A stretch of DNA of 64,000 nucleotides from Candidatus Lloydbacteria bacterium RIFCSPHIGHO2_02_FULL_50_18 (GTDB lineage: Bacteria > Patescibacteriota > Minisyncoccia > Phycocordibacterales > UBA6899). Positions 2,378 to 63,799 of this stretch are shown here, in pieces; position 1 is the stretch's first letter; each line of letters opens with the position of its first letter. The notes under the pieces are model-generated. The model saw nothing but the letters and a program-made list of their open reading frames with translations, did no database searches and was not told where the DNA came from. Position numbers and translations under genes: made by a program. Location of the stretch: positions 64,001 through 128,000 of the forward strand of contig MHLM01000004.1 of NCBI GenBank assembly GCA_001821395.1, given 5' to 3'.

Positions 2378-2445
2378 CTCTCCTCGGCACCACGGAGAGT
2401 ACTTCCATTTTTCTAAGTGGATGACCACTAAGAAAAATTGGTCGC
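2378..2445 (+). repeat. Repeat family R1, copy 1 (about 68 bp, contains a 14-bp hairpin ATTTTTCTAAGTGG/CCACTAAGAAAAAT)
   Basis: About 85% identical to 61781..61843, and in reverse orientation to 13304..13373. Confidence 0.7.
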
Positions 2446-2638: not shown

Positions 2639-3325
2639 ATGTCGCTAATGATCTATTTCGATAATGTGACGAAACTATACTCTGACCACGCCGCGGTGTC
2701 GGACGTTACCTTTGGCATTGAGTCGGGGGAATTCCTCTCGATTGTAGGGCATTCGGGTGCCGGGAAAACGTCGCTGTTGCGCCTTCTTTTGGTAGAAGAT
2801 AGGCCGACGTCAGGTGCCGTTTTTTTTGAAAAAACCGATATCCATCGTATCAAGGCCGCTCATGTGCCGGAATATCGCAGACGCATCGGTACTGTTTTTC
2901 AGGATTTTCGGCTGTTTCCCAATAAGACTGCGTATGAGAATATTGCGTTCGCACTTGAGGCTGCCGGACGTACCGATGAGGAGATCCGCTCCGATGTTCC
3001 GCAGGTGCTCGAGCTTGTCGATCTTGCGTCAAAAGCGCTGCATTTTCCGCACGAGCTCTCCGGAGGGGAGAAGCAACGTGTCGCCATCGCGCGTGCTATC
3101 ATTTCGCAACCCGATGTACTGATCGCCGACGAGCCGACGGGAAATCTCGACCCGGTGAATACCTACGACATCATTCAGATATTGAAGAAGATCAATGACA
3201 TGGGAACAACGATCATTTTGACGACGCACAACAAGGGGATCATCGACGCGCTGAAGAAGCGGGTGGTGACGATGGAGAATGGGAAGGTTATACGTGACGA
3301 TGCTCACGGCAAATATATTCTCTAA
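2639..3325 (+). CDS. ftsE: Cell division ATP-binding protein FtsE
   Basis: Walker A GHSGAGKT, LSGGEKQR signature and Walker B IADEPTGNLD. Lies immediately upstream of an FtsX-like permease. Confidence 0.85.
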   Translation: MSLMIYFDNVTKLYSDHAAVSDVTFGIESGEFLSIVGHSGAGKTSLLRLLLVEDRPTSGAVFFEKTDIHRIKAAHVPEYRRRIGTVFQDFRLFPNKTAYENIAFALEAAGRTDEEIRSDVPQVLELVDLASKALHFPHELSGGEKQRVAIARAIISQPDVLIADEPTGNLDPVNTYDIIQILKKINDMGTTIILTTHNKGIIDALKKRVVTMENGKVIRDDAHGKYIL

Positions 3326-3444
3326 TATTTTCGCGCCTCACTTTGTTGTAAGGCAGCGCACTTATGCCCCAGCGACTCGGTCAACATATATGAATATGTC
3401 TTCCTTGTCGCTTTCCCCGCGCCTCGTGATGCATCGAAAATATT
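3324..3444. repeat. Repeat family R2 copy 1 (core 3366..3428) bounded by a perfect 10-bp inverted repeat AATATTTTCG/CGAAAATATT
   Basis: The core is about 85% identical to 37514..37580. The flanking inverted repeat is specific to this locus. Confidence 0.6.
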
Positions 3445-3695
3445 CGAGAATATTTCCTGCATGGCTTCGCTCTTTATCCAAAATCTTAAAGAATGATACA
3501 TAGAACTTCAACCAACACTGACACTAGAGGACGCGTTGCGCCTCGTGATGTGACCAATTTTTCTCAGCGGTACTCCGCTTTAGAAAAATGAAATGCCCTC
3601 TGTGGTACATCAAAAATATTTCGGCCGGCATATTGACATAATCAGTTATTTTCATAGGATGAGTATTGGAAGAGTTTGAAAAGGAGAATTGACCA

Positions 3696-3895
3696 TGAAA
3701 CTGAAGCAGGGTTCGGTAAGGCGTGCATGCGCTCTTTTTGCGACTTTTTGTGCCGCAGTGGCAATGACCGGACTTATCATTTGGGGTTTAGACTTGCTGG
3801 TGGTGAAGGCCGTCGAGATCGCTCCGACATTCATTCCGGTCGAGCTCTATCCTCCGCATCATGCTTGTGTTGACATCATTCCTCTATGCCCTTAG
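3696..3895 (+). CDS. Small hydrophobic hypothetical protein (66 aa)
   Basis: An AAGGAGA ribosome-binding site lies 7 nt upstream of ATG 3696. One predicted TM segment. No homology recognised. Confidence 0.3.
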
Positions 3896-4307
3896 ACTCG
3901 TTAAAGGAACTGTTCTCGGACCGAACCAGAAGGGGAGGATAATCCTCGACAGGGTAAACCGACAGAGGGAAACGAAAAGATCTCAAGCGGCATGCTCGCG
4001 TGGATGCACGCGTAATGCCAAGGGCTTAGCCGTAACGGGGCGCGCCAGCACCTGACATCCCGTAGGGGACGAGGGTTTGAGAGATCAGCCATAAAACGGG
4101 TGCCTTATCATCCGTGGCAAATCGCCGGAGAATAGTTCTGCCATTTCAAACGTCGCATACTCGTGCGGCGTTTTTTCTTTTCCGAGGACCACCCAAACAT
4201 GGTGAATTTCTTTATTTCGGGATTCTCGTGATTCGGTCGCCATGCATGAGTGAATGGCCTCACCTGTCCACTTCGCTTTTCTGGTCAATTCATGCGAAAA
4301 TACCCTC

Positions 4308-5240
4308 ATGGGAATGTTCACTAGTACGCGCCGCATCGTGAGAGCGGGATTCATTAATTTCTGGAGGAATGCTGTTGTCTCCTTATCGGCCATCTTTGTC
4401 ATGAGCATCGCGCTCTTTGTGGTTGGTTCCACGATCCTTTTTTCAAACTTTCTTGATTCAACCCTAGAGGAGATCAAGAACAAGGTTGATGTGAACGTAT
4501 ATTTTAATCCTGACGCGCAGGAATCCGATATCTTTTTGATGAAGCGCTCTCTCGAAGAGCTTCCGGAGGTCAAGTCGATAGAATATATTTCTCGCGATCA
4601 GGCAATCGCGAATTTCAAAGCACGTCACAGTAATGACTACCTTATGACTCAGGCACTCGATGAGCTGATCGATAATCCACTCGGGGCAATTTTGAACATC
4701 AAGGCGAAAGACACGTCTCAATATGAAGCGATCGCCAAGCGCATCAAGAGCGATCAGGAGACGGCCGGTCCCGGAGGGAATCTGATCTATAGTGTTAATT
4801 TCAGCAAGAACAAAGTGGTCATCGACAAATTGACCGATATCACGAATGGGGTTGAAAAAGTATCTTTTGCCATACTGCTCGTACTGATCGCAATCGCGAT
4901 CGTGATCACCTTCAATACAATCCGCTTGGCGATCTATGTTTCCCGCGAAGAGATCGCTATCATGCGTCTCGTCGGGGCCAATAATTCGTTCGTGCGAGGA
5001 CCGTTCATCGTCGAGGGCATCATGTACGGCATGGTTGCGGCGATCGTTGCGACCGCACTGCTTTATCCGGTGACACATTGGCTTCGTGATGCGACACAGA
5101 ATTTCTATGGCGGAGTCGACTTCTTCTTCTCCTATTACATCAATCATCTCAATCAGATCTTCGCCATTTTGCTGGTTGGCGGAGTGTTCCTAGGCGCAGT
5201 TTCATCGTTCCTTGCGGTGCGGAGATACTTAAAAGTTTAA
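4308..5240 (+). CDS. ftsX: Cell division protein FtsX (permease-like)
   Basis: TM1, an extracellular loop of about 130 aa, then three C-terminal TMs with an MRLVGA...PFIVEG motif. The start is ambiguous (4254, 4308 or 4314). Confidence 0.8.
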   Translation: MGMFTSTRRIVRAGFINFWRNAVVSLSAIFVMSIALFVVGSTILFSNFLDSTLEEIKNKVDVNVYFNPDAQESDIFLMKRSLEELPEVKSIEYISRDQAIANFKARHSNDYLMTQALDELIDNPLGAILNIKAKDTSQYEAIAKRIKSDQETAGPGGNLIYSVNFSKNKVVIDKLTDITNGVEKVSFAILLVLIAIAIVITFNTIRLAIYVSREEIAIMRLVGANNSFVRGPFIVEGIMYGMVAAIVATALLYPVTHWLRDATQNFYGGVDFFFSYYINHLNQIFAILLVGGVFLGAVSSFLAVRRYLKV

Positions 5241-7234: not shown

Positions 7235-9130
7235 ATGATTCAAGAGACCGCTCTTACTATTATGAAAACGGGGGCGAATGTATTCCTCACGGGGGAGCCC
7301 GGGAGCGGTAAAACGCATACCGTAAACGCATATATCCGCTACCTCCGCGAGCACAACGTCAATCCTTCGATCACTGCTTCAACGGGTATCGCCGCGACGC
7401 ACGTCGGCGGGATGACCATTCATTCATGGAGCGGTATCGGCATCAAGCGTGCGCTCACCGAATATGACCTCGATGCGCTGTCCTCGAACGAAGGACTTGT
7501 GAAGCGTATCGCCAATGCAAAGGTGCTTATCATCGATGAGATATCGATGCTCGACGGCAACACGCTGGTCATGGTGGAGGCGGTCACGCGAACGCTTCGT
7601 CGCAAGCACGAGCCTTTCGGCGGACTGCAGATAATTTTCGTCGGCGATTTCTTTCAGCTGCCTCCCATCGCGGACCGGGCAAGCGGTGTTCGTGCGCAGT
7701 TTTGTTTCGAATCAACAGCATGGCGAGTGGCGAATCCCATAGTGTGCTATCTCTCCGAGCAGCACCGTCAGGAAGACACCGCGTTTCTCTCTACGCTTGG
7801 CGCCATTCGCCGCGGAGAGCTCGAGGATAGCGTCTTTGAATATATCGGCGAGAGGCACGTGCTCCCAGGTGAGCATCCACACGACATTCCGCAGCTCTAT
7901 ACGCACAACATTGATGTCGACAAAAAGAATACGGAAGAGCTCGCAAAACTTGAAACGGAAGAAAAGGTCTTTCTCATGAGCACGAAGGGGACGAGCAATC
8001 GCGTGGAGCAGCTGATCAAGGGCTGTCTTTCACCCGAGGAACTGGTGTTGAAAGAAGGCGCATCGGTGATGTTCACCAAAAATAATTTTGAAAACGGCTA
8101 TGTGAACGGCACATTGGGGACGGTGGTGGGATTCGACGAGGACAATGGTTTTCCAATTGTTGAAACATCGGGCGGAGAAAATATTACCGCGCTTCCTTCC
8201 GAATGGGCCGTTGATGATTCTGGGAAAGTGCTCGCCACCATCACTCAGGTACCGCTCCGACTCGCGTGGGCTATTACCGTGCACAAGAGCCAGGGGATGA
8301 GCCTTGATGCCGCGACGATGGATCTCTCGCGCGCATTTGAATACGGGCAAGGGTATGTGGCACTCTCTCGTGTACGCGCATTCTCGGGATTGCACATCCT
8401 CGGCATCAATCAGCGCGCATTCGAGGTGCACCCTCTTGTGCTTGAGCGCGACCTCGCGTTTCACGAGCGTTCGGATGAAGCGGAGGCGGGGTTTCTCGAC
8501 ATGTCGGACGCCGACCTCCGGAAGTTACACGAGAACTTTTTACTCGCCATTGGAGGGAATCTGGCGAAAAAAGAAATCATTGCCAAGGCATTCGGTGTTC
8601 CAAAACTGAGTACGTATGAAGAAACGCTCGCGCTCCTCAGCCCCGGGATGACGCTCGCCGCGATTGCCAAGCGTCGGGACGTGACCGAGGGGACGATCGT
8701 GGGCCATATCGAAGAACTCGCGCTACTCGGAAAGCTCCCGTCGATAGACATCGCCGCCTTTGCCGAGCTTCCTGCGTCGGTGGTGAAGGAGATAACGCAA
8801 ACGATCGAGACGATCGGAGGAGAATTTCTCAAGCCGCTCTACCTTGAATTGGATGAACGTTATTCTTATGAAACGATCCGTCTTGTTCGATTCGGAGCGG
8901 GCATTGCTCCGAAGCAAAAAGACGCCGTCGTTGCGAAAAAAGAAAAGGTAAAAAAGGTGTCACATGAAAAACCCGCAAAGCTCGGAGCGAAGTGGGGAAA
9001 GGAAGAGGAAGAACGACTCACAAAAATGTTCAAAGAGGGAAAGAAGACGAAGGACATCGCACAGACACTTGAACGGCAGTCGGGGGGTATCCGTGCTCGT
9101 TTGAAGAAGCTGGGGCTGATAAAAAAATAG
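7235..9130 (+). CDS. PIF1/RecD-family ATP-dependent DNA helicase with C-terminal HTH-like domains
   Basis: Walker A GEPGSGKT, Walker B LIIDEISM, the QLPPI motif and VHKSQG. The C-terminal roughly 190 aa carry HTH-like segments. Confidence 0.75.
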   Translation: MIQETALTIMKTGANVFLTGEPGSGKTHTVNAYIRYLREHNVNPSITASTGIAATHVGGMTIHSWSGIGIKRALTEYDLDALSSNEGLVKRIANAKVLIIDEISMLDGNTLVMVEAVTRTLRRKHEPFGGLQIIFVGDFFQLPPIADRASGVRAQFCFESTAWRVANPIVCYLSEQHRQEDTAFLSTLGAIRRGELEDSVFEYIGERHVLPGEHPHDIPQLYTHNIDVDKKNTEELAKLETEEKVFLMSTKGTSNRVEQLIKGCLSPEELVLKEGASVMFTKNNFENGYVNGTLGTVVGFDEDNGFPIVETSGGENITALPSEWAVDDSGKVLATITQVPLRLAWAITVHKSQGMSLDAATMDLSRAFEYGQGYVALSRVRAFSGLHILGINQRAFEVHPLVLERDLAFHERSDEAEAGFLDMSDADLRKLHENFLLAIGGNLAKKEIIAKAFGVPKLSTYEETLALLSPGMTLAAIAKRRDVTEGTIVGHIEELALLGKLPSIDIAAFAELPASVVKEITQTIETIGGEFLKPLYLELDERYSYETIRLVRFGAGIAPKQKDAVVAKKEKVKKVSHEKPAKLGAKWGKEEEERLTKMFKEGKKTKDIAQTLERQSGGIRARLKKLGLIKK

Positions 9131-9184
9131 ACAAAAATTTGAAAGCGAGAGGTATTTGACAAGTGCGATAAACTACTGCAGGAT
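9070..9184 (+). repeat. 115-bp direct repeat, copy A (last 61 nt of the helicase CDS plus the downstream TTGACA-containing region)
   Basis: About 90% identical to 10906..11020. Contains TTGACA at 9156..9161. Confidence 0.8.
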
Positions 9185-10905: not shown

Positions 10906-11020
10906 TGAACGCCAGTCGGGAGGTATTCGCTCTCGTTTGAAAAAGCTGGGGCTGATAAAAAAAAGACATACATTTGAAGGCAAGGAGGTATTTGACAAGT
11001 GCGATAAACTACTGCAGGAT
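10906..11020 (+). repeat. 115-bp direct repeat, copy B (contains an out-of-context fragment of the helicase C-terminal coding sequence)
   Basis: Translates to QSGGIRSRLKKLGLIKK, which matches the helicase tail. TTGACA at 10992..10997. Confidence 0.8.
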
Positions 11021-13046: not shown

Positions 13047-13060
13047 CATTTGCGAGGAGA

Positions 13061-13082
13061 GGAAGCCATCTGCATGGCTTCC
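13061..13082. repeat. 22-bp perfect palindrome GGAAGCCATCTGCATGGCTTCC, copy 1, embedded in an inverted copy of the tRNA-Gln 3' half
   Basis: Identical 22-mer at 61685..61706. Flanked by TTTGCG and GGCAGGGACTCGAA, which match the reverse complement of the tRNA-Gln T-arm and acceptor 3' strand. Confidence 0.8.
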
Positions 13083-13165
13083 GGCAGGGACTCGAAGCCG
13101 TTCTCCCATATTTTCGAGACATTCTTATGTTGAGAAAATAGGAAACGGGTACTGACGCAGTAGGC

Positions 13166-13303: not shown

Positions 13304-13373
13304 GCGACATTGTTTTCTTATGAGTAAGCGAGTTAGAAAACAAGAAGTACTCTTGTGGTGCCGGGGTCGAGAG
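13304..13373 (-). repeat. Repeat family R1, copy 3 (reverse orientation), flanked by a 9-bp inverted repeat CCTAAGTGC/GCACTTAGG
   Basis: The reverse complement aligns with 2378..2445: TTTTCTTA..TTAGAAAA..AAGTACTCT..GTGGTGCCG. Confidence 0.65.
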
Positions 13374-36438: not shown

Positions 36439-37470
36439 CTATGGGGTGCGCTGAAATAGTCGCAGTAGAAAAGCAAAAAGGATGTCGTACCACCTTGGTA
36501 TGTACGTTTGAGCGGGAAATGGTAGCGCCTCGTTCATCCAGAGCGCTATGATCTTTCTGAGTTCGGCCACCATGTGCTTGTTGTCAAAAAAGATGCCCGA
36601 TTCGACATTCCAGTCAAATGACAGCGTGTCGAGGTTTTGAGAGCCCATTGTTCCTATTCGGTCATCAACAAGCATGACCTTTGCATGGTTCATCCCGACG
36701 CCCAAGAGGCAGTGCACGCCGATCTTTTCGAAGCGGCTTGCATAATAATAATTGATTCGATCAAGGTATGCATGGTCTGTGGTTTTCGGGATGATGATGG
36801 TCACCACGACCCCACGCATGACGACGCGATGGAGGTGCGCCACCATCCAAGGATGGGGTATGAGATAGGGTGTAACGAGCACGATGCTGTGCTGTGCGCC
36901 ATCAATGTGTTCCTCATAGTGTGCGCGTAATCCGCGAAATTTTTTCTGCACTCCGTTTTCAATGAACCATGTGCGTGCACGACTCCAAAGTTTGGGTTCG
37001 TTCGCAAAGATGAGCGCAGGGTTCTTCCCACCGCATTCACGATAGACACGCGCAAAAGAGCGAACGGCTATTTTTGCAACACGACCGGAGACACGCACTT
37101 GCAGGTCCTTCCAGCGAGCGAATTGTCCGGAGATGTTCACCCCGCCAAGGAAGACGGACCACTCGTCGATGATGAGCATTTTCCGATGTGTGCGACGGAG
37201 CCAATAGCTGAAGAGTCGCACTTCTGCGCCTGCGCTCTTGAGTCGCTCGATCGCTTCATTGGCCAGCCCAAAGCTCCCGAATGCGTCGAGAATAACCACG
37301 ACACGAATACCGGCACGCGCCTTGACCTCAAGTTCTGAAAGAAAATCATACCCCGTTGTATCACCGTCAAAGACATACATTTCGAGATAAATACTCTCCT
37401 TCGCGCCAATGATCGCTTGGAGCATTGCATCCCAGGCATGCTCTGATGTGGTGTAGAATTTACCGCGCAT
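36439..37470 (-). CDS. Phospholipase D family protein / cardiolipin synthase-like
   Basis: Two HKD motifs: HRKMLIIDEWSVFLGGVN and HAKVMLVDDRIGTMGSQNLD. Confidence 0.75.
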   Translation of the reverse strand: MRGKFYTTSEHAWDAMLQAIIGAKESIYLEMYVFDGDTTGYDFLSELEVKARAGIRVVVILDAFGSFGLANEAIERLKSAGAEVRLFSYWLRRTHRKMLIIDEWSVFLGGVNISGQFARWKDLQVRVSGRVAKIAVRSFARVYRECGGKNPALIFANEPKLWSRARTWFIENGVQKKFRGLRAHYEEHIDGAQHSIVLVTPYLIPHPWMVAHLHRVVMRGVVVTIIIPKTTDHAYLDRINYYYASRFEKIGVHCLLGVGMNHAKVMLVDDRIGTMGSQNLDTLSFDWNVESGIFFDNKHMVAELRKIIALWMNEALPFPAQTYIPRWYDILFAFLLRLFQRTP

Positions 37471-37475
37471 AATTT

Positions 37476-37599
37476 AAATTCAGTTCACTACCCCTATCTG
37501 CTTTGTTGCGGGGGCCCCTGCGACGCGGTCACCATATAAGAATATGTTTTCCTTGCCGCTTTCCCCGCGCCTCGCGTATAGGGGCATTGAACTGAATTT
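37476..37599. repeat. Repeat family R2 copy 2 (core 37514..37580) enclosed by a 22-bp inverted repeat AAATTCAGTTCACTACCCCTAT/ATAGGGGCATTGAACTGAATTT
   Basis: The core is about 85% identical to 3366..3428. The flanking inverted repeat (20 of 22 bp) differs in sequence from the one at copy 1. Confidence 0.6.
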
Positions 37600-37671
37600 A
37601 TGATAGATTATAGCGTATTTTTTAGTATTCCACTTCTCCATCGGGTAAAAATCCATGTATAATGCCATCCT

Positions 37672-61551: not shown

Positions 61552-61626
61552 TCCGGTGTAGCTCAGTGGTAGAGCAGTGCGCTGTTAACGCATTGGTCGC
61601 AGGTTCGAATCCTGCCGCCGGAGCCA
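61552..61626 (+). tRNA. tRNA-Asn (anticodon GTT), CCA encoded
   Basis: U1:A72 acceptor stem TCCGGTG/CGCCGGA, anticodon loop CTGTTAA, T-loop TTCGAAT and a 3' CCA. Confidence 0.85.
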
Positions 61627-61669: not shown

Positions 61670-61719
61670 TTGGCTCCGGGCGGAGGAAGCCATCTGCATG
61701 GCTTCCGAAAGGATTCGAA
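61670..61719. repeat. Inverted copy of the tRNA-Asn 3' half interrupted by palindrome GGAAGCCATCTGCATGGCTTCC (61685..61706)
   Basis: TTGGCTCCGGGCGG and AGGATTCGAA match the reverse complement of the tRNA 3' strand. The insert is flanked by AGGA on both sides. Confidence 0.8.
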
Positions 61720-61780: not shown

Positions 61781-61843
61781 CTCCTGCACCACAAGAGTAC
61801 TTCATTTTTCTAAGACGGAGTACCATTAAGAAAAATTGGTCGC
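61781..61843 (+). repeat. Repeat family R1, copy 2
   Basis: About 85% identical to 2378..2445. Confidence 0.7.
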
Positions 61844-61854
61844 CGCCGGAGCCA
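61842..61854 (+). repeat. Direct repeat of the tRNA-Asn 3' end (GCCGCCGGAGCCA, 13 nt exact), att-like, abutting R1
   Basis: Identical to 61614..61626. Confidence 0.75.
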
Positions 61855-63557: not shown

Positions 63558-63799
63558 TGTATAGCGGATAGAATTCCTTGAAGAACCGGACCTATTTGAA
63601 TAAAAGCAAAAGAAAAACACCGCGTTGAGGATGTTTTTCTTTTGTTGATGCTTCGTGCAGCGAGCGGAGCTCGCTGGCTGGAACCGAACACCGGAGTATA
63701 AATTTTCAGCAGAAAATATTACGAGGCGGTGCGCAGACCAAAATGTTGCGACGGCAATATTTTGCGTCGCAGGAGAAATTCCTGCCGCCGGAGTCTTTC

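What the first reader, a model, noticed from the sequence alone, without database searches (positions are those of the whole stretch)
3324..4253. Unusually long (about 0.93 kb) ftsE-ftsX spacer with an R2 element inside a perfect inverted repeat, a small ORF and a GC-rich non-coding stretch
ftsE and ftsX are normally adjacent or overlapping. Here the ftsE stop codon sits inside a 10-bp inverted repeat (AATATTTTCG...CGAAAATATT) that brackets the roughly 65-bp R2 core. Downstream lie a 66-aa hydrophobic ORF with a strong ribosome-binding site, and about 350 nt (3900..4250) of GC-rich sequence with many short hairpins and no convincing ORF. The GC-rich stretch could be a gene remnant or a structured RNA.
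Basis: seen in the sequence. Interest (0 to 1): 0.5.

Follow-up and report, generated by a model that had tools for sequence, protein, structure and literature searches.

The report
New structured RNA gene between ftsE/ftsX
The long gap between two cell-division genes of this uncultured Lloydbacteria (CPR) bacterium is not decayed DNA: it holds a conserved hairpin that covers the ftsE stop codon, a small membrane-protein gene, and a self-contained gene for a folded RNA of about 240 nt that matches no catalogued RNA family.

Summary
The true ftsE-ftsX gap is 3326-4307, about 0.98 kb. It has four modules.

1. Rod hairpin, 3315-3453. A 19-bp closing stem embeds the ftsE stop codon and encloses the "R2" core. 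The same stem sits at the same place in most Lloydbacteria loci and covaries with the stop codon.
2. A palindromic repeat, 3545-3625, here called Rb.
3. A real 66-aa membrane-protein gene, 3695-3895. It shows a conserved Shine-Dalgarno, third-codon-position variation and in-frame indels.
4. The GC-rich stretch, which is an RNA gene.
   - Promoter: TTGACA, 17 nt, TAGACT (3870-3898).
   - RNA: 3905-4142.
   - Terminator: 4148-4181.

The RNA has no Rfam match. It recurs in 13 or more related lineages, always between ftsE and ftsX on the same strand. In the homolog alignment 94.8% of pair cells are paired, against 39-46% for slid controls. Of 65 pairs, 25 carry compensatory changes. A kissing-loop pseudoknot covaries as well.

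The RNA comes in full, short and mini forms, and about half of the close relatives lack it. In one lineage a convergent gene separates it from ftsX, so it is not an obligate ftsX leader.

Function is unknown. My best guess is a trans-acting, protein- or ligand-binding accessory RNA. It is a new RNA family with a narrow distribution.

The parts
2639..3325 (+). ftsE coding sequence (ABC ATPase); stop codon TAA at 3323-3325
   Evidence: ORF list. tblastn shows 82-95% identity to relatives, reaching the last residue.
3315..3453 (.). Closing stem 3315-3333 / 3435-3453 covers the last three ftsE codons and the stop codon. The core is 3334-3434, and its repeated part is 3366-3426.
   Evidence: 19-nt inverted repeat, 95% complementary. 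Fold z = -6.1 (+) and -7.2 (-). An 18-21-nt stem at the same position, with a loop of about 89-101 nt, is found in 12 or more Lloydbacteria loci and covaries with the stop codon. RNAalifold: 23 of 29 pairs carry compensatory changes. The functional strand is unresolved.
3478..3494 (+). Degenerate second copy of the rod's right arm (CCAAAATCTTAAAGAAT). It lies inside a 119-nt segment (3432-3550) bounded by the 13-nt direct repeat GCGCCTCGTGATG (3419-3431, 3538-3550).
   Evidence: Direct repeats D1 and D3. L023 lacks this segment. The sequence is identical to the right arm of L002.
3545..3625 (+). Palindromic repeat "Rb" (hairpin 3558-3588). It looks like a small repeated or mobile element.
   Evidence: Inverted copies at 2387-2445 and 61785-61844, and a partial copy at 13338-13367. 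Also present in L023, L213, L009 (inside that locus's rod) and L022.
3633..3660 (+). Promoter-like site for the small ORF (TTGACA, 16 nt, TAGGAT)
   Evidence: Consensus scan, 10 of 12 matches. The same hexamers are conserved in L213 and L023.
3695..3895 (+). Small gene for a 66-aa membrane protein, with Shine-Dalgarno AAGGAG at 3681-3686
   Evidence: Conserved at 79% aa identity in L213 and 56% in L023, with in-frame indels. Differences by codon position are 9/6/20. A seven-member family with a shared basic N-terminus, a transmembrane helix and a Pro-rich tail. It is found only directly upstream of the RNA. An identical protein is annotated as hypothetical in a Ca. Lloydbacteria MAG.
3870..3898 (+). 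Promoter of the RNA gene: -35 TTGACA (3870-3875), 17-nt spacer, -10 TAGACT (3893-3898). It overlaps the last codons and the stop codon of the small ORF.
   Evidence: Consensus scan, 10 of 12 matches. The same geometry (TTGACx or a near variant, then 16-17 nt, then a TAnnnT -10 hexamer, mostly TAGnnT, then about 7 nt to P1) is seen in L023, L004, L015, L018, L002, L220, L221 and L224. This includes loci with no ORF.
3905..4142 (+). Structured ncRNA, about 238 nt.
- P1: 3906-3919 / 4125-4139
- J1/2 (ACCGA): 3920-3925
- P2: 3926-3933
- J2/3 (GGAGGAUAA): 3934-3943
- P3: 3944-3968
- J3/4: 3969-3978
- P4: 3979-3984 / 4081-4086
- P5: 3989-4019 (loop GGAUGC)
- Extension domain: hairpin A 4023-4046 (loop 4032-4038), P6 4050-4076, P7/P8 4088-4118 (loop 4103-4108)
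- Kissing pairs: 4032-4035 with 4105-4108
   Evidence: Strand-specific fold. Homologs found by nhmmer and by covariance model in 13 or more lineages, all between ftsE and ftsX. Pair counts: 94.8% paired, 25 of 65 pairs with double changes, 0 of 500 shuffles as good, slid controls 39-46%. No Rfam match.
4148..4181 (+). Intrinsic terminator of the RNA gene (11-bp stem, then a T run)
   Evidence: Terminator scan. A terminator with a covarying stem follows every homolog.
4271..4307 (+). Conserved ftsX leader (CTTCGCTTTTCT..CATGCGAAAAT..), directly before the ftsX start
   Evidence: The same motif precedes ATGGGAATG in L002, L214, L221, L015, L220 and L004, whatever lies upstream.
4308..5240 (+). 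ftsX coding sequence (start MGMFTSTRR)
   Evidence: 310-aa query; homologs are 307-310 aa at 100% coverage; Pfam FtsX_ECD and FtsX.

Best explanation
The spacer is a mosaic of conserved functional modules, not decay. The GC-rich stretch is a stand-alone gene for a highly structured non-coding RNA.

**Transcription.** A sigma-70-type promoter (3870-3898) starts transcription at about 3905, exactly at the 5' strand of a 12-14-bp closing helix, P1. An intrinsic terminator (4148-4181) ends the transcript.

**Fold.**
- The core is a four-way junction (P1, P2, P3, P4/P5).
- The joining strands are conserved and purine-rich: ACCGA, GAGGAUAAG and GAAACGA.
- P2 and P3 carry GNRA-type loops.
- The P5 hairpin has a conserved loop, GGA(U/G)GC.
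- This genome has the "full" form, which adds a roughly 100-nt extension domain locked by a loop-loop kissing helix.

**Distribution.** The gene is inherited at this one site in a subclade of Candidatus Lloydbacteria. It is usually preceded by a small membrane-protein gene whose 3' end contains the RNA promoter. It has been trimmed (short and mini forms) or lost in many relatives, so it is an accessory.

**Inferred mechanism.** The RNA acts in trans as a folded particle that binds a protein or a small ligand through the junction and the P5 loop. It does not act as an ftsX riboswitch or as an antisense RNA. I give about 0.4 to "trans-acting binder". What it binds is unknown.

**Shown:** the gene boundaries, the conservation and the structure.
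**Inferred:** transcription, trans action and the binding role.

The hairpin at 3315-3453 is a separate, clade-wide structural element at the 3' end of ftsE. It most likely marks or insulates the end of the ftsE message (processing or stability).
For: **Promoter and terminator**
- Found by consensus scan.
- Conserved in position in all homologs, including loci that lack the upstream ORF.

**Fold**
- Only the + strand folds better than shuffles: z = -3.5 against +0.16.

**Homologs**
- Found in window, L213, L023/L129/L218/L222, L216/217, L004, L003, L224, L015, L220 and L142 (full form); L018, L214/215, L002 and L221 (short form); and L219 (mini form).
- All lie between ftsE and ftsX on the same strand.

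**Covariation**
- 94.8% of cells are paired, against 39-46% when partners are slid.
- 25 of 65 pairs have changes on both sides.
- 0 of 500 shuffles reach the observed values on four of the five measures (2 of 500 on further pair types).
- The kissing helix was not part of the covariance model, yet it is 100% paired. Two of its positions covary through three pair types each: AUAA/UUAU, GUAA/UUAU, UUAG/CUAA and UUAC/GUAA.

**Not a known family**
- No Rfam family matches the RNA at E <= 10, in the window or at the RNA in four relatives.

**Not an obligate ftsX leader**
- In L023/L216/L218/L222 a 131-aa gene on the opposite strand lies between the RNA and ftsX.
- ftsX keeps its own conserved leader in every locus.

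**Small ORF is real and linked to the RNA**.

**Rod is conserved with covariation**.
Against: - There are no expression data, so transcription is inferred from sequence signals only.
- The family was seen only in close relatives (FtsX at least about 78% identical) and only at one locus. The covarying changes therefore come from few independent lineages, about 13 distinct sequences.
- The alignment used for counting was fitted to the model, which favours the structure.
- About half of the close relatives lack the RNA at this locus. I could not search the rest of their genomes.
- Nothing in the data identifies a binding partner. "Trans-acting binder" is an argument by exclusion.
- In most loci the RNA does lie upstream of ftsX on the same strand, so some cis effect through terminator read-through cannot be excluded.
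Confidence: 0.7

Rival explanations
1. The RNA is a cis-acting leader (a riboswitch or protein-dependent attenuator) of ftsX. Its promoter drives ftsX, and the terminator at 4148-4181 is read through only under some condition sensed by the folded domain.
For: - The RNA is always upstream of ftsX on the same strand.
- A strong terminator sits 40-180 nt before ftsX.
- No sigma-70-like promoter was detected between the terminator and ftsX in the window.
- The junction, with its conserved unpaired purines, resembles an aptamer.
Against: - In the L023/L216/L218/L222 lineage a convergent 131-aa gene lies between the RNA and ftsX.
- Many relatives express ftsX without the RNA.
- I found no conserved alternative pairing between the P1 3' strand and the terminator. 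P1 and the terminator are separated by an unconserved linker.
- The ftsX leader motif is conserved independently of the RNA.
Confidence: 0.12
2. The small ORF and the RNA form one functional unit. Possibilities are a dual-function transcript, a 3'-UTR-derived RNA, or a toxin-antitoxin-like pair in which the RNA controls a small hydrophobic, potentially toxic membrane peptide.
For: - The ORF family occurs only directly upstream of the RNA (7 of 7 distinct loci), whereas the RNA occurs without the ORF in at least 5 lineages. This asymmetry is expected if the ORF needs the RNA.
- The RNA promoter is embedded in the ORF's 3' end, and both share one terminator.
- The module is accessory and often lost.
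- The protein is small, with a single transmembrane helix.
Against: - The RNA is on the same strand, so it is not antisense.
- The complementarities seen in the window are not conserved in L213 or L023. These are 3836-3860 with 3929-3953 and 3674-3684 with 4141-4151 (sequences compared by eye).
- The RNA persists and stays structured where the ORF is absent.
- The elaborate tertiary structure is unlike known type I antitoxins (own knowledge).
Confidence: 0.12
3. The RNA is a very divergent copy of a universal RNA (SRP RNA, 6S RNA, RNase P RNA or tmRNA) that Rfam models fail to recognise in CPR bacteria.
For: - The ends pair in a long closing helix and the RNA has its own promoter and terminator, as in many housekeeping RNAs.
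- ftsE and ftsX sit next to the SRP receptor gene ftsY in E. coli (own knowledge).
Against: - No match to any of these families even at E <= 10, in five different homologs.
- tRNA/tmRNA search found nothing here.
- The short (133 nt) and mini forms, and the absence of the RNA from about half of the close relatives at this locus, are not expected for an essential RNA.
- The four-way junction with two 3-bp tetraloop hairpins does not fit the SRP domain IV, 6S or RNase P P4 architectures (inspection; own knowledge).
Confidence: 0.03
4. The GC-rich stretch is a decayed gene remnant or other non-functional DNA. The rod and the Rb repeat are merely selfish palindromic repeats (MITE- or REP-like) that inflated the spacer.
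For: - The spacer is an insertion hotspot holding unrelated genes in other Lloydbacteria.
- Rb has four copies in the window and has inserted into the rod in L009 and L023.
- The R2 core has a second copy at 37.5 kb.
- Palindromes can acquire matched changes in both arms by templated mutation (own knowledge).
Against: **For the RNA**
- Conserved promoter and terminator, compensatory changes in 25 pairs, a covarying pseudoknot, strand-specific folding, and no protein similarity.

**For the rod**
- It is kept at the orthologous position with a nearly constant loop length (about 89-101 nt) in 12 or more species.
- Its arm sequences differ between species and between the two window copies. This is the opposite of a MITE, whose terminal repeats are shared.
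Confidence: 0.03

Closest known systems
Orphan complex-folded bacterial ncRNAs found by comparative genomics (for example raiA, OLE, ROOL/GOLLD motifs; own knowledge)
   Same: - Lineage-restricted.
- A multi-helix junction with conserved unpaired nucleotides.
- GNRA loops and pseudoknot or kissing contacts.
- Its own transcription unit.
- Function not deducible from sequence.
   Different: - No sequence or structure match to any of them in Rfam 15.
- Much narrower distribution: one subclade of Ca. Lloydbacteria.
- A fixed genomic site between ftsE and ftsX.
- A modular series of full, short and mini forms.
3'-UTR-derived sRNAs with an internal promoter inside the upstream ORF (the DapZ / MicL type) and dual-function RNAs that pair a small protein with an RNA (SgrS/SgrT, AzuCR) (own knowledge)
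   Same: - The RNA promoter lies in the last codons of the upstream small ORF.
- The ORF mRNA and the RNA would share one terminator.
- The partner is a small membrane protein.
   Different: - Those sRNAs are simple Hfq-dependent base-pairing RNAs. This one has a large, covariation-supported tertiary fold.
- It persists without the ORF in several lineages.
Riboswitch or attenuator leaders
   Same: - Junction-type fold with conserved joining strands.
- Followed by an intrinsic terminator and then a gene on the same strand.
   Different: - No competing antiterminator was found.
- It is separated from ftsX by a convergent gene in one lineage.
- ftsX is expressed without it in many relatives.
Long palindromic intergenic elements transcribed as part of mRNAs (ERIC/IRU, REP/BIME) and RNase III-type processing stems (own knowledge). 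This is the comparison for the rod at 3315-3453.
   Same: - An imperfect palindrome of about 130 nt in a transcribed intergenic region, folding into a long rod.
- A second copy elsewhere in the genome.
   Different: - The closing arms are not shared between copies.
- At ftsE the left arm is the coding end of the gene and covaries with the stop codon across species.
- The position is orthologous, not scattered.

Membership tests
Any Rfam 15 family (including SRP, 6S, RNase P, tmRNA, riboswitches and known orphan motifs) | Covariance-model score at or near the family's gathering threshold | tested here: not met
   At the gathering threshold the 64-kb window gives only two tRNAs. At E <= 10 the only match in 3250-4350 is a chance snoRNA hit at 3631-3706. 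Nothing matches at the RNA in L015, L018, L004 or L215. ARAGORN finds no tmRNA.
Riboswitch / transcription attenuator | Located in the 5' leader of the gene it controls, in all members | tested here: not met
   A convergent 131-aa gene lies between the RNA and ftsX in L023/L216/L218/L222.
Riboswitch / transcription attenuator | An expression platform in which the aptamer's closing helix competes with the terminator (a conserved alternative pairing) | tested here: inconclusive
   Inspection of the aligned 3' ends shows no conserved antiterminator. I made no formal search for alternative structures.
Type I toxin-antitoxin system | A small hydrophobic membrane peptide | tested here: met
   Proteins of 60-66 aa with one hydrophobic helix.
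Type I toxin-antitoxin system | An antitoxin RNA antisense to the toxin mRNA, or with conserved complementarity to it | tested here: not met
   The RNA is on the same strand. The complementarities found in the window are not kept in L213 or L023 (sequences).
3'-UTR-derived sRNA with an internal promoter | A promoter inside the upstream ORF and a terminator shared with the mRNA | tested here: met
   The -35 and -10 elements overlap the last codons and stop codon of the ORF in window, L213, L023, L018, L214, L002 and L221. There is one terminator. This does not apply to L004, L015, L220 and L224, which have no ORF.
3'-UTR-derived sRNA with an internal promoter | A single-stranded seed region and chaperone dependence | not testable with these tools
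   This needs target and chaperone data.
Intrinsic terminator (for the rod 3315-3453) | A GC-rich stem followed directly by a U run | tested here: not met
   The stem is AT-rich, and no T run follows it in the window or in relatives.
MITE / REP-like repeat (for the rod and its R2 core) | Multiple copies that share terminal inverted repeats | tested here: not met
   The two window copies share the core (90%) but have unrelated arms of 19-22 nt. Orthologous rods differ in arm sequence.
Integron attC site (for the rod) | RYYYAAC ... GTTRRRY ends on a structured recombination site downstream of a cassette gene | tested here: not met
   The arms (ATATTCTCTAATATTTTCG / CGAAAATATTCGAGAATAT and their orthologs) lack these motifs, and the locus is a conserved operon. 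The consensus is from my own knowledge.

The most novel reading that the evidence does not exclude
The RNA would be a new class of compact RNA: a four-way junction core with an optional kissing-loop domain. Together with its partner small membrane protein, it would form a previously unknown accessory RNA-protein module. That module would tune the FtsEX cell-division/cell-wall complex in ultra-small CPR bacteria. The stop-codon-embedding rod would be a second new cis element that sets the ftsE:ftsX expression ratio after the ancestral translational coupling was broken.
Probability: 0.12. Interest if true: 0.75.

Novelty: new member of a known kind. Interest (0 to 1): 0.52.

Why it matters
CPR/Patescibacteria have tiny genomes with little non-coding DNA, and their RNA biology is almost unexplored.

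- **The RNA.** This is a promoter-to-terminator gene for a roughly 240-nt RNA with a covariation-supported junction and a kissing loop, absent from Rfam. It is a concrete new family to add to the catalogue. Its natural full, short and mini series already maps which parts are dispensable.
- **The site.** The RNA sits inside the essential ftsEX pair, whose genes overlap in related lineages. It is linked to a small membrane protein. This gives a testable lead on how these organisms regulate division or envelope functions.
- **The rod.** The hairpin that embeds the ftsE stop codon shows coding sequence and RNA/DNA structure co-evolving. Its unexplained strand asymmetry deserves a transcriptomic look.

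The narrow distribution and the unknown function limit the immediate impact.

Tried and rejected
1. **Rfam.** Scans at the gathering threshold and at E <= 10, on the window and on four relatives, found nothing at the RNA or the rod.
2. **Metagenome pattern scan.** Only L129 and L142 were real; the rest were chance.
3. **Viral scan.** 13 pattern hits, none confirmed by the covariance model.
4. **Weak profile hits.** L084 and L119 (E = 0.17) have a different fold and no ftsEX context. I treat them as chance.
5. **Second covariance model.** A MAFFT "core" alignment (A8) put helices out of register and was used only as an nhmmer profile.
6. **Fold-back idea.** The 3' tail (4141-4151) pairing with the ORF's Shine-Dalgarno region (3674-3684), and the ORF 3' part (3836-3860) pairing with J2/3-P3 (3929-3953), are both present in the window. 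Neither is conserved in L213 or L023. Rejected.
7. **RNase P P4-like or SRP domain-IV-like reading** of GAGGAUAAG and GGUGCCUUAUC. The required pairings do not covary. The GGUGCC...CAUCC segment is instead a hairpin whose loop forms the kissing helix.
8. **Rod as terminator, attC site or MITE.** The defining features are not met.
9. **Minus-strand promoter for the rod.** None is conserved.
10. **Rod outside Lloydbacteria.** No consistent stem at the ftsE stop codon in more distant loci with gaps over 100 nt.
11. **ftsE exact-sequence look-up.** It found no record, probably because the called start differs.
12. **Literature.** Searches for CPR/Parcubacteria structured RNAs returned nothing relevant.
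Full report
**Source and setting.** The window comes from a CPR/Patescibacteria genome of the Candidatus Lloydbacteria type. FtsX homologs of 72-97% identity are named Lloydbacteria or Paceibacterota. The 66-aa spacer protein is identical to a hypothetical protein of a Ca. Lloydbacteria MAG. The gene order is GDPD, prfB, ftsE (2639-3325), spacer, ftsX, pyrG, and it is shared with relatives.

**Checking the observation.**
- The ftsX ORF opens at 4254. However, homologs are 307-310 aa, and the sequence before the conserved ATGGGAATG is not conserved as protein. The gene therefore starts at 4308 and the gap is about 0.98 kb.
- The inverted repeat is 19 nt with one mismatch (3315-3333 / 3435-3453), and the ftsE stop codon (3323-3325) lies in its left arm.
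- The R2 core (3366-3426) has a 90% identical copy at 37514-37574.
- The 66-aa ORF (3695-3895) has AAGGAG 8 nt before its ATG.
- The stretch 3900-4124 has GC 0.57, against 0.40-0.46 for the rest of the spacer.
- In 57 more distant Paceibacteria loci the ftsE-ftsX distance is mostly 0-30 nt. In the 20 or so Lloydbacteria loci it ranges from 183 to 2676 nt. The long gap is a trait of the clade, and its content varies.

**The GC-rich stretch is an RNA gene.**
- The + strand of 3890-4180 folds far better than shuffled sequence (z = -3.5, 0 of 200 shuffles). The - strand does not (z = +0.16).
- A promoter-like site, TTGACA-17-TAGACT (3870-3898), lies 7 nt before the first paired base. A clean intrinsic terminator (4148-4181) follows the last one.
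- nhmmer and a covariance model built from the window plus L023 find the same element in these loci:
  - full form: L213, L023 (the same sequence as L129, L218 and L222), L216/L217 (cut by contig ends), L004, L003 (cut), L224, L015, L220 and L142;
  - short form of about 133-155 nt, lacking the 3' extension: L018, L214/L215, L002 and L221;
  - mini form, keeping only P1, one hairpin, P4/P5 and the terminator: L219.
- Every copy lies between ftsE and ftsX on their strand.
- Every copy has the promoter geometry: a -35 of TTGACx or a near variant, 16-17 nt, a TAnnnT -10 hexamer (mostly TAGnnT), then about 7 nt to P1. This includes L004, L015, L220 and L224, where no ORF constrains the sequence. 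Every copy also has a terminator whose stem covaries.

**Structure of the RNA.** In window coordinates:
- P1: 3906-3919 / 4125-4139.
- J1/2 (ACCGA).
- P2: 3926-3933, with an AGAA or GNRA loop.
- J2/3 (GAGGAUAAG).
- P3: 3944-3968, variable length, GNRA-type loop.
- J3/4 (GAAACGA...).
- P4: 3979-3984 / 4081-4086.
- P5: 3989-4019, with the conserved loop GGA(U/G)GC.
- The full form then adds hairpin A (4023-4046, 7-nt loop), P6 (4050-4076) and P7/P8 (4088-4118).

On the alignment of 13 distinct sequences:
- 94.8% of pair cells are standard pairs, against 39-46% when the 3' partners are slid by 1-3 columns.
- 25 of 65 pairs show changes on both sides.
- None of 500 column shuffles reaches the observed values on four of the five measures (2 of 500 on further pair types).

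One caveat is that this alignment was fitted to the model. Two things are independent of that. First, a plain MAFFT alignment of four sequences already gave 9 compensatory pairs. Second, the loop-loop helix was not in the model. Loop A positions 1-4 pair with loop B positions 3-6 as AUAA/UUAU, GUAA/UUAU, UUAG/CUAA and UUAC/GUAA. This helix is 100% paired, with three pair types at each of two positions.

**Not a known family, not a gene remnant.**
- Rfam 15 gives nothing at the RNA at gathering scores or at E <= 10, in the window and in four relatives.
- ARAGORN finds no tmRNA.
- The chance ORFs across the region have no Pfam match.
- Sequence resemblances to the RNase P P4 strands and to SRP domain IV did not survive inspection. 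The supposed partners do not covary, and one of them is the loop of the kissing hairpin.

**How it probably works.**
- The RNA is not an obligate ftsX leader.
  - In the L023 lineage a 131-aa gene on the opposite strand lies between it and ftsX.
  - About half of the close relatives have no copy at this locus: L005-L012, L014, L016, L017, L021, L022 and L225-L228.
  - A conserved ftsX leader (4271-4307) is present whatever lies upstream.
  - I see no conserved antiterminator.
- It is not antisense to anything nearby.
- The natural deletion series always retains P1 and P4/P5. The short form also keeps the four-way junction, and the full form adds a self-contained extension. This looks like a folded core with optional stabilising periphery.
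- I therefore favour a trans-acting folded RNA that binds a protein or small ligand, at about 0.4.
- The rivals are a cis effect on ftsX by read-through (0.12), a functional unit with the small ORF (0.12), a divergent housekeeping RNA (0.03), and no function at all (0.03).

**The small ORF.**
- It is conserved at 79% aa identity in L213 and 56% in L023, with 2- and 4-codon in-frame deletions.
- Differences between the window and L213 fall 9/6/20 on codon positions 1/2/3.
- A more distant version (25-36% identity) shares the same layout: basic KRA/RRA motif, one hydrophobic helix and a Pro-rich tail. It precedes the short-form RNAs.
- A profile of the seven proteins finds members only directly upstream of the RNA. 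The RNA occurs without the ORF in L004, L224, L015, L220 and L142.
- All members have a Shine-Dalgarno sequence.
- It is most likely a real small membrane protein. It has no Pfam family.

**The R2 / inverted-repeat element.**
- It is one rod-like hairpin of about 125-140 nt.
- In window, L002, L006, L007, L009, L014, L015, L017, L018, L021, L142 and L214 an 18-21-nt stem starts 6-13 nt before the end of ftsE. It pairs with a segment about 89-101 nt downstream (147 nt in L009, which has an Rb insertion).
- Changes in the last codons and in the stop codon (TAA, TAG, TGA) are matched in the right arm.
- RNAalifold finds compensatory changes in 23 of 29 pairs, covering the outer stem, a second tier and the apical GUAY/RUAC hairpin. 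One row of that alignment, L142, was given with wrong coordinates and should be ignored.
- The second window copy (37465-37600) lies between two divergent genes. It has the same core but unrelated 22-nt arms.
- No T run follows the stem, there are no attC-type ends, and the terminal repeats are not shared. It is therefore not a terminator, an attC site or a classical MITE.
- No such stem exists in more distant Paceibacteria with gaps over 100 nt.
- I read it as a clade-specific structural element at the end of the ftsE message, possibly for processing, stability or insulation. This is an inference.
- One result is unexplained. The minus strand folds more stably in 14 of 15 rods and carries 44 G-U pairs, against 14 on the plus strand. 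Yet I found no conserved minus-strand promoter.

**Other content and history of the spacer.**
- Rb (3545-3625) is a palindromic repeat with three more copies in the window. It also has copies in relatives, including insertions into the rod of L009 and L023.
- Relative to L023 the window has an extra 119 nt (3432-3550) bounded by a 13-nt direct repeat. This segment carries the intact right arm.
- In other Lloydbacteria the same gap holds unrelated genes. The site downstream of the rod is an insertion hotspot.

**Limits.**
- There is no expression evidence.
- There are few independent lineages.
- The genome-wide distribution of the RNA is unknown.

**Verdict.** This is a real and previously uncatalogued structured RNA gene, together with a conserved stop-codon hairpin and a small membrane-protein gene. 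Distribution is narrow and function is unknown. Interest is moderate.

Noticed in passing
window 3545-3625 (+), 2387-2445 (-), 61785-61844 (-), 13338-13367 (partial): A palindromic repeat of about 60-80 nt ("Rb", core TTTTTCTnAGCGG-TAyy-CCGCnTTAGAAAAA). Copies lie after prfB, after the rod, and 170-330 nt after tRNA-Asn and tRNA-Gln. In relatives it is inserted into the rod (L009, L023). It looks like a small mobile or REP-like element.
   Followed up: partly
window 37465-37600: A second copy of the R2 core, enclosed by its own unrelated 22-nt inverted repeat. It sits between two divergently transcribed genes, and its left arm abuts the start codon of the minus-strand gene 36439-37470.
   Followed up: partly
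window 3315-3453 and 14 orthologous or related rods: Strand asymmetry of the rod. The minus-strand fold is more stable in 14 of 15 cases and has 44 G-U pairs, against 14 on the plus strand. No minus-strand promoter is conserved. Unexplained.
   Followed up: partly
window 61596-61623 and 63766-63793: The 3' part of tRNA-Asn is repeated (82%) about 2.1 kb downstream. This is the pattern left by an element integrated into a tRNA gene (family D8).
   Followed up: no
window 13059-13088 and 61683-61712: The same GC-rich hairpin (GAGGAAGCCATCTGCATGGCTTCC) follows both tRNA genes of the window by about 50 nt.
   Followed up: no
window 9070-9184 and 10906-11020: The 3' end of the Pif1-like helicase gene (7235-9130), plus 36 nt of identical downstream sequence, is duplicated 1836 nt away (90-100% identity). 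This suggests two neighbouring genes that share a C-terminal module.
   Followed up: no
L014, L016, L022, L002, L009 (ftsE-ftsX gaps of 1.6-2.7 kb); L216 254-649 (-): In other Lloydbacteria the same spacer holds unrelated protein genes of roughly 260 to 325 aa. In the L023 lineage a 131-aa gene with no Pfam family lies on the opposite strand between the RNA and ftsX. The site is an insertion hotspot.
   Followed up: partly
window 3686-3706 and 4271-4291: The start region of the small ORF is 81% complementary over 21 nt to the conserved ftsX leader motif. A similar relation seems to hold in L002, but I did not test it for significance.
   Followed up: no
L219 1976-2130: A mini version of the RNA. 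P1, P4/P5 and the terminator are kept, and the P2/P3 junction region is replaced by one unrelated hairpin. It is useful as a natural deletion mutant.
   Followed up: partly
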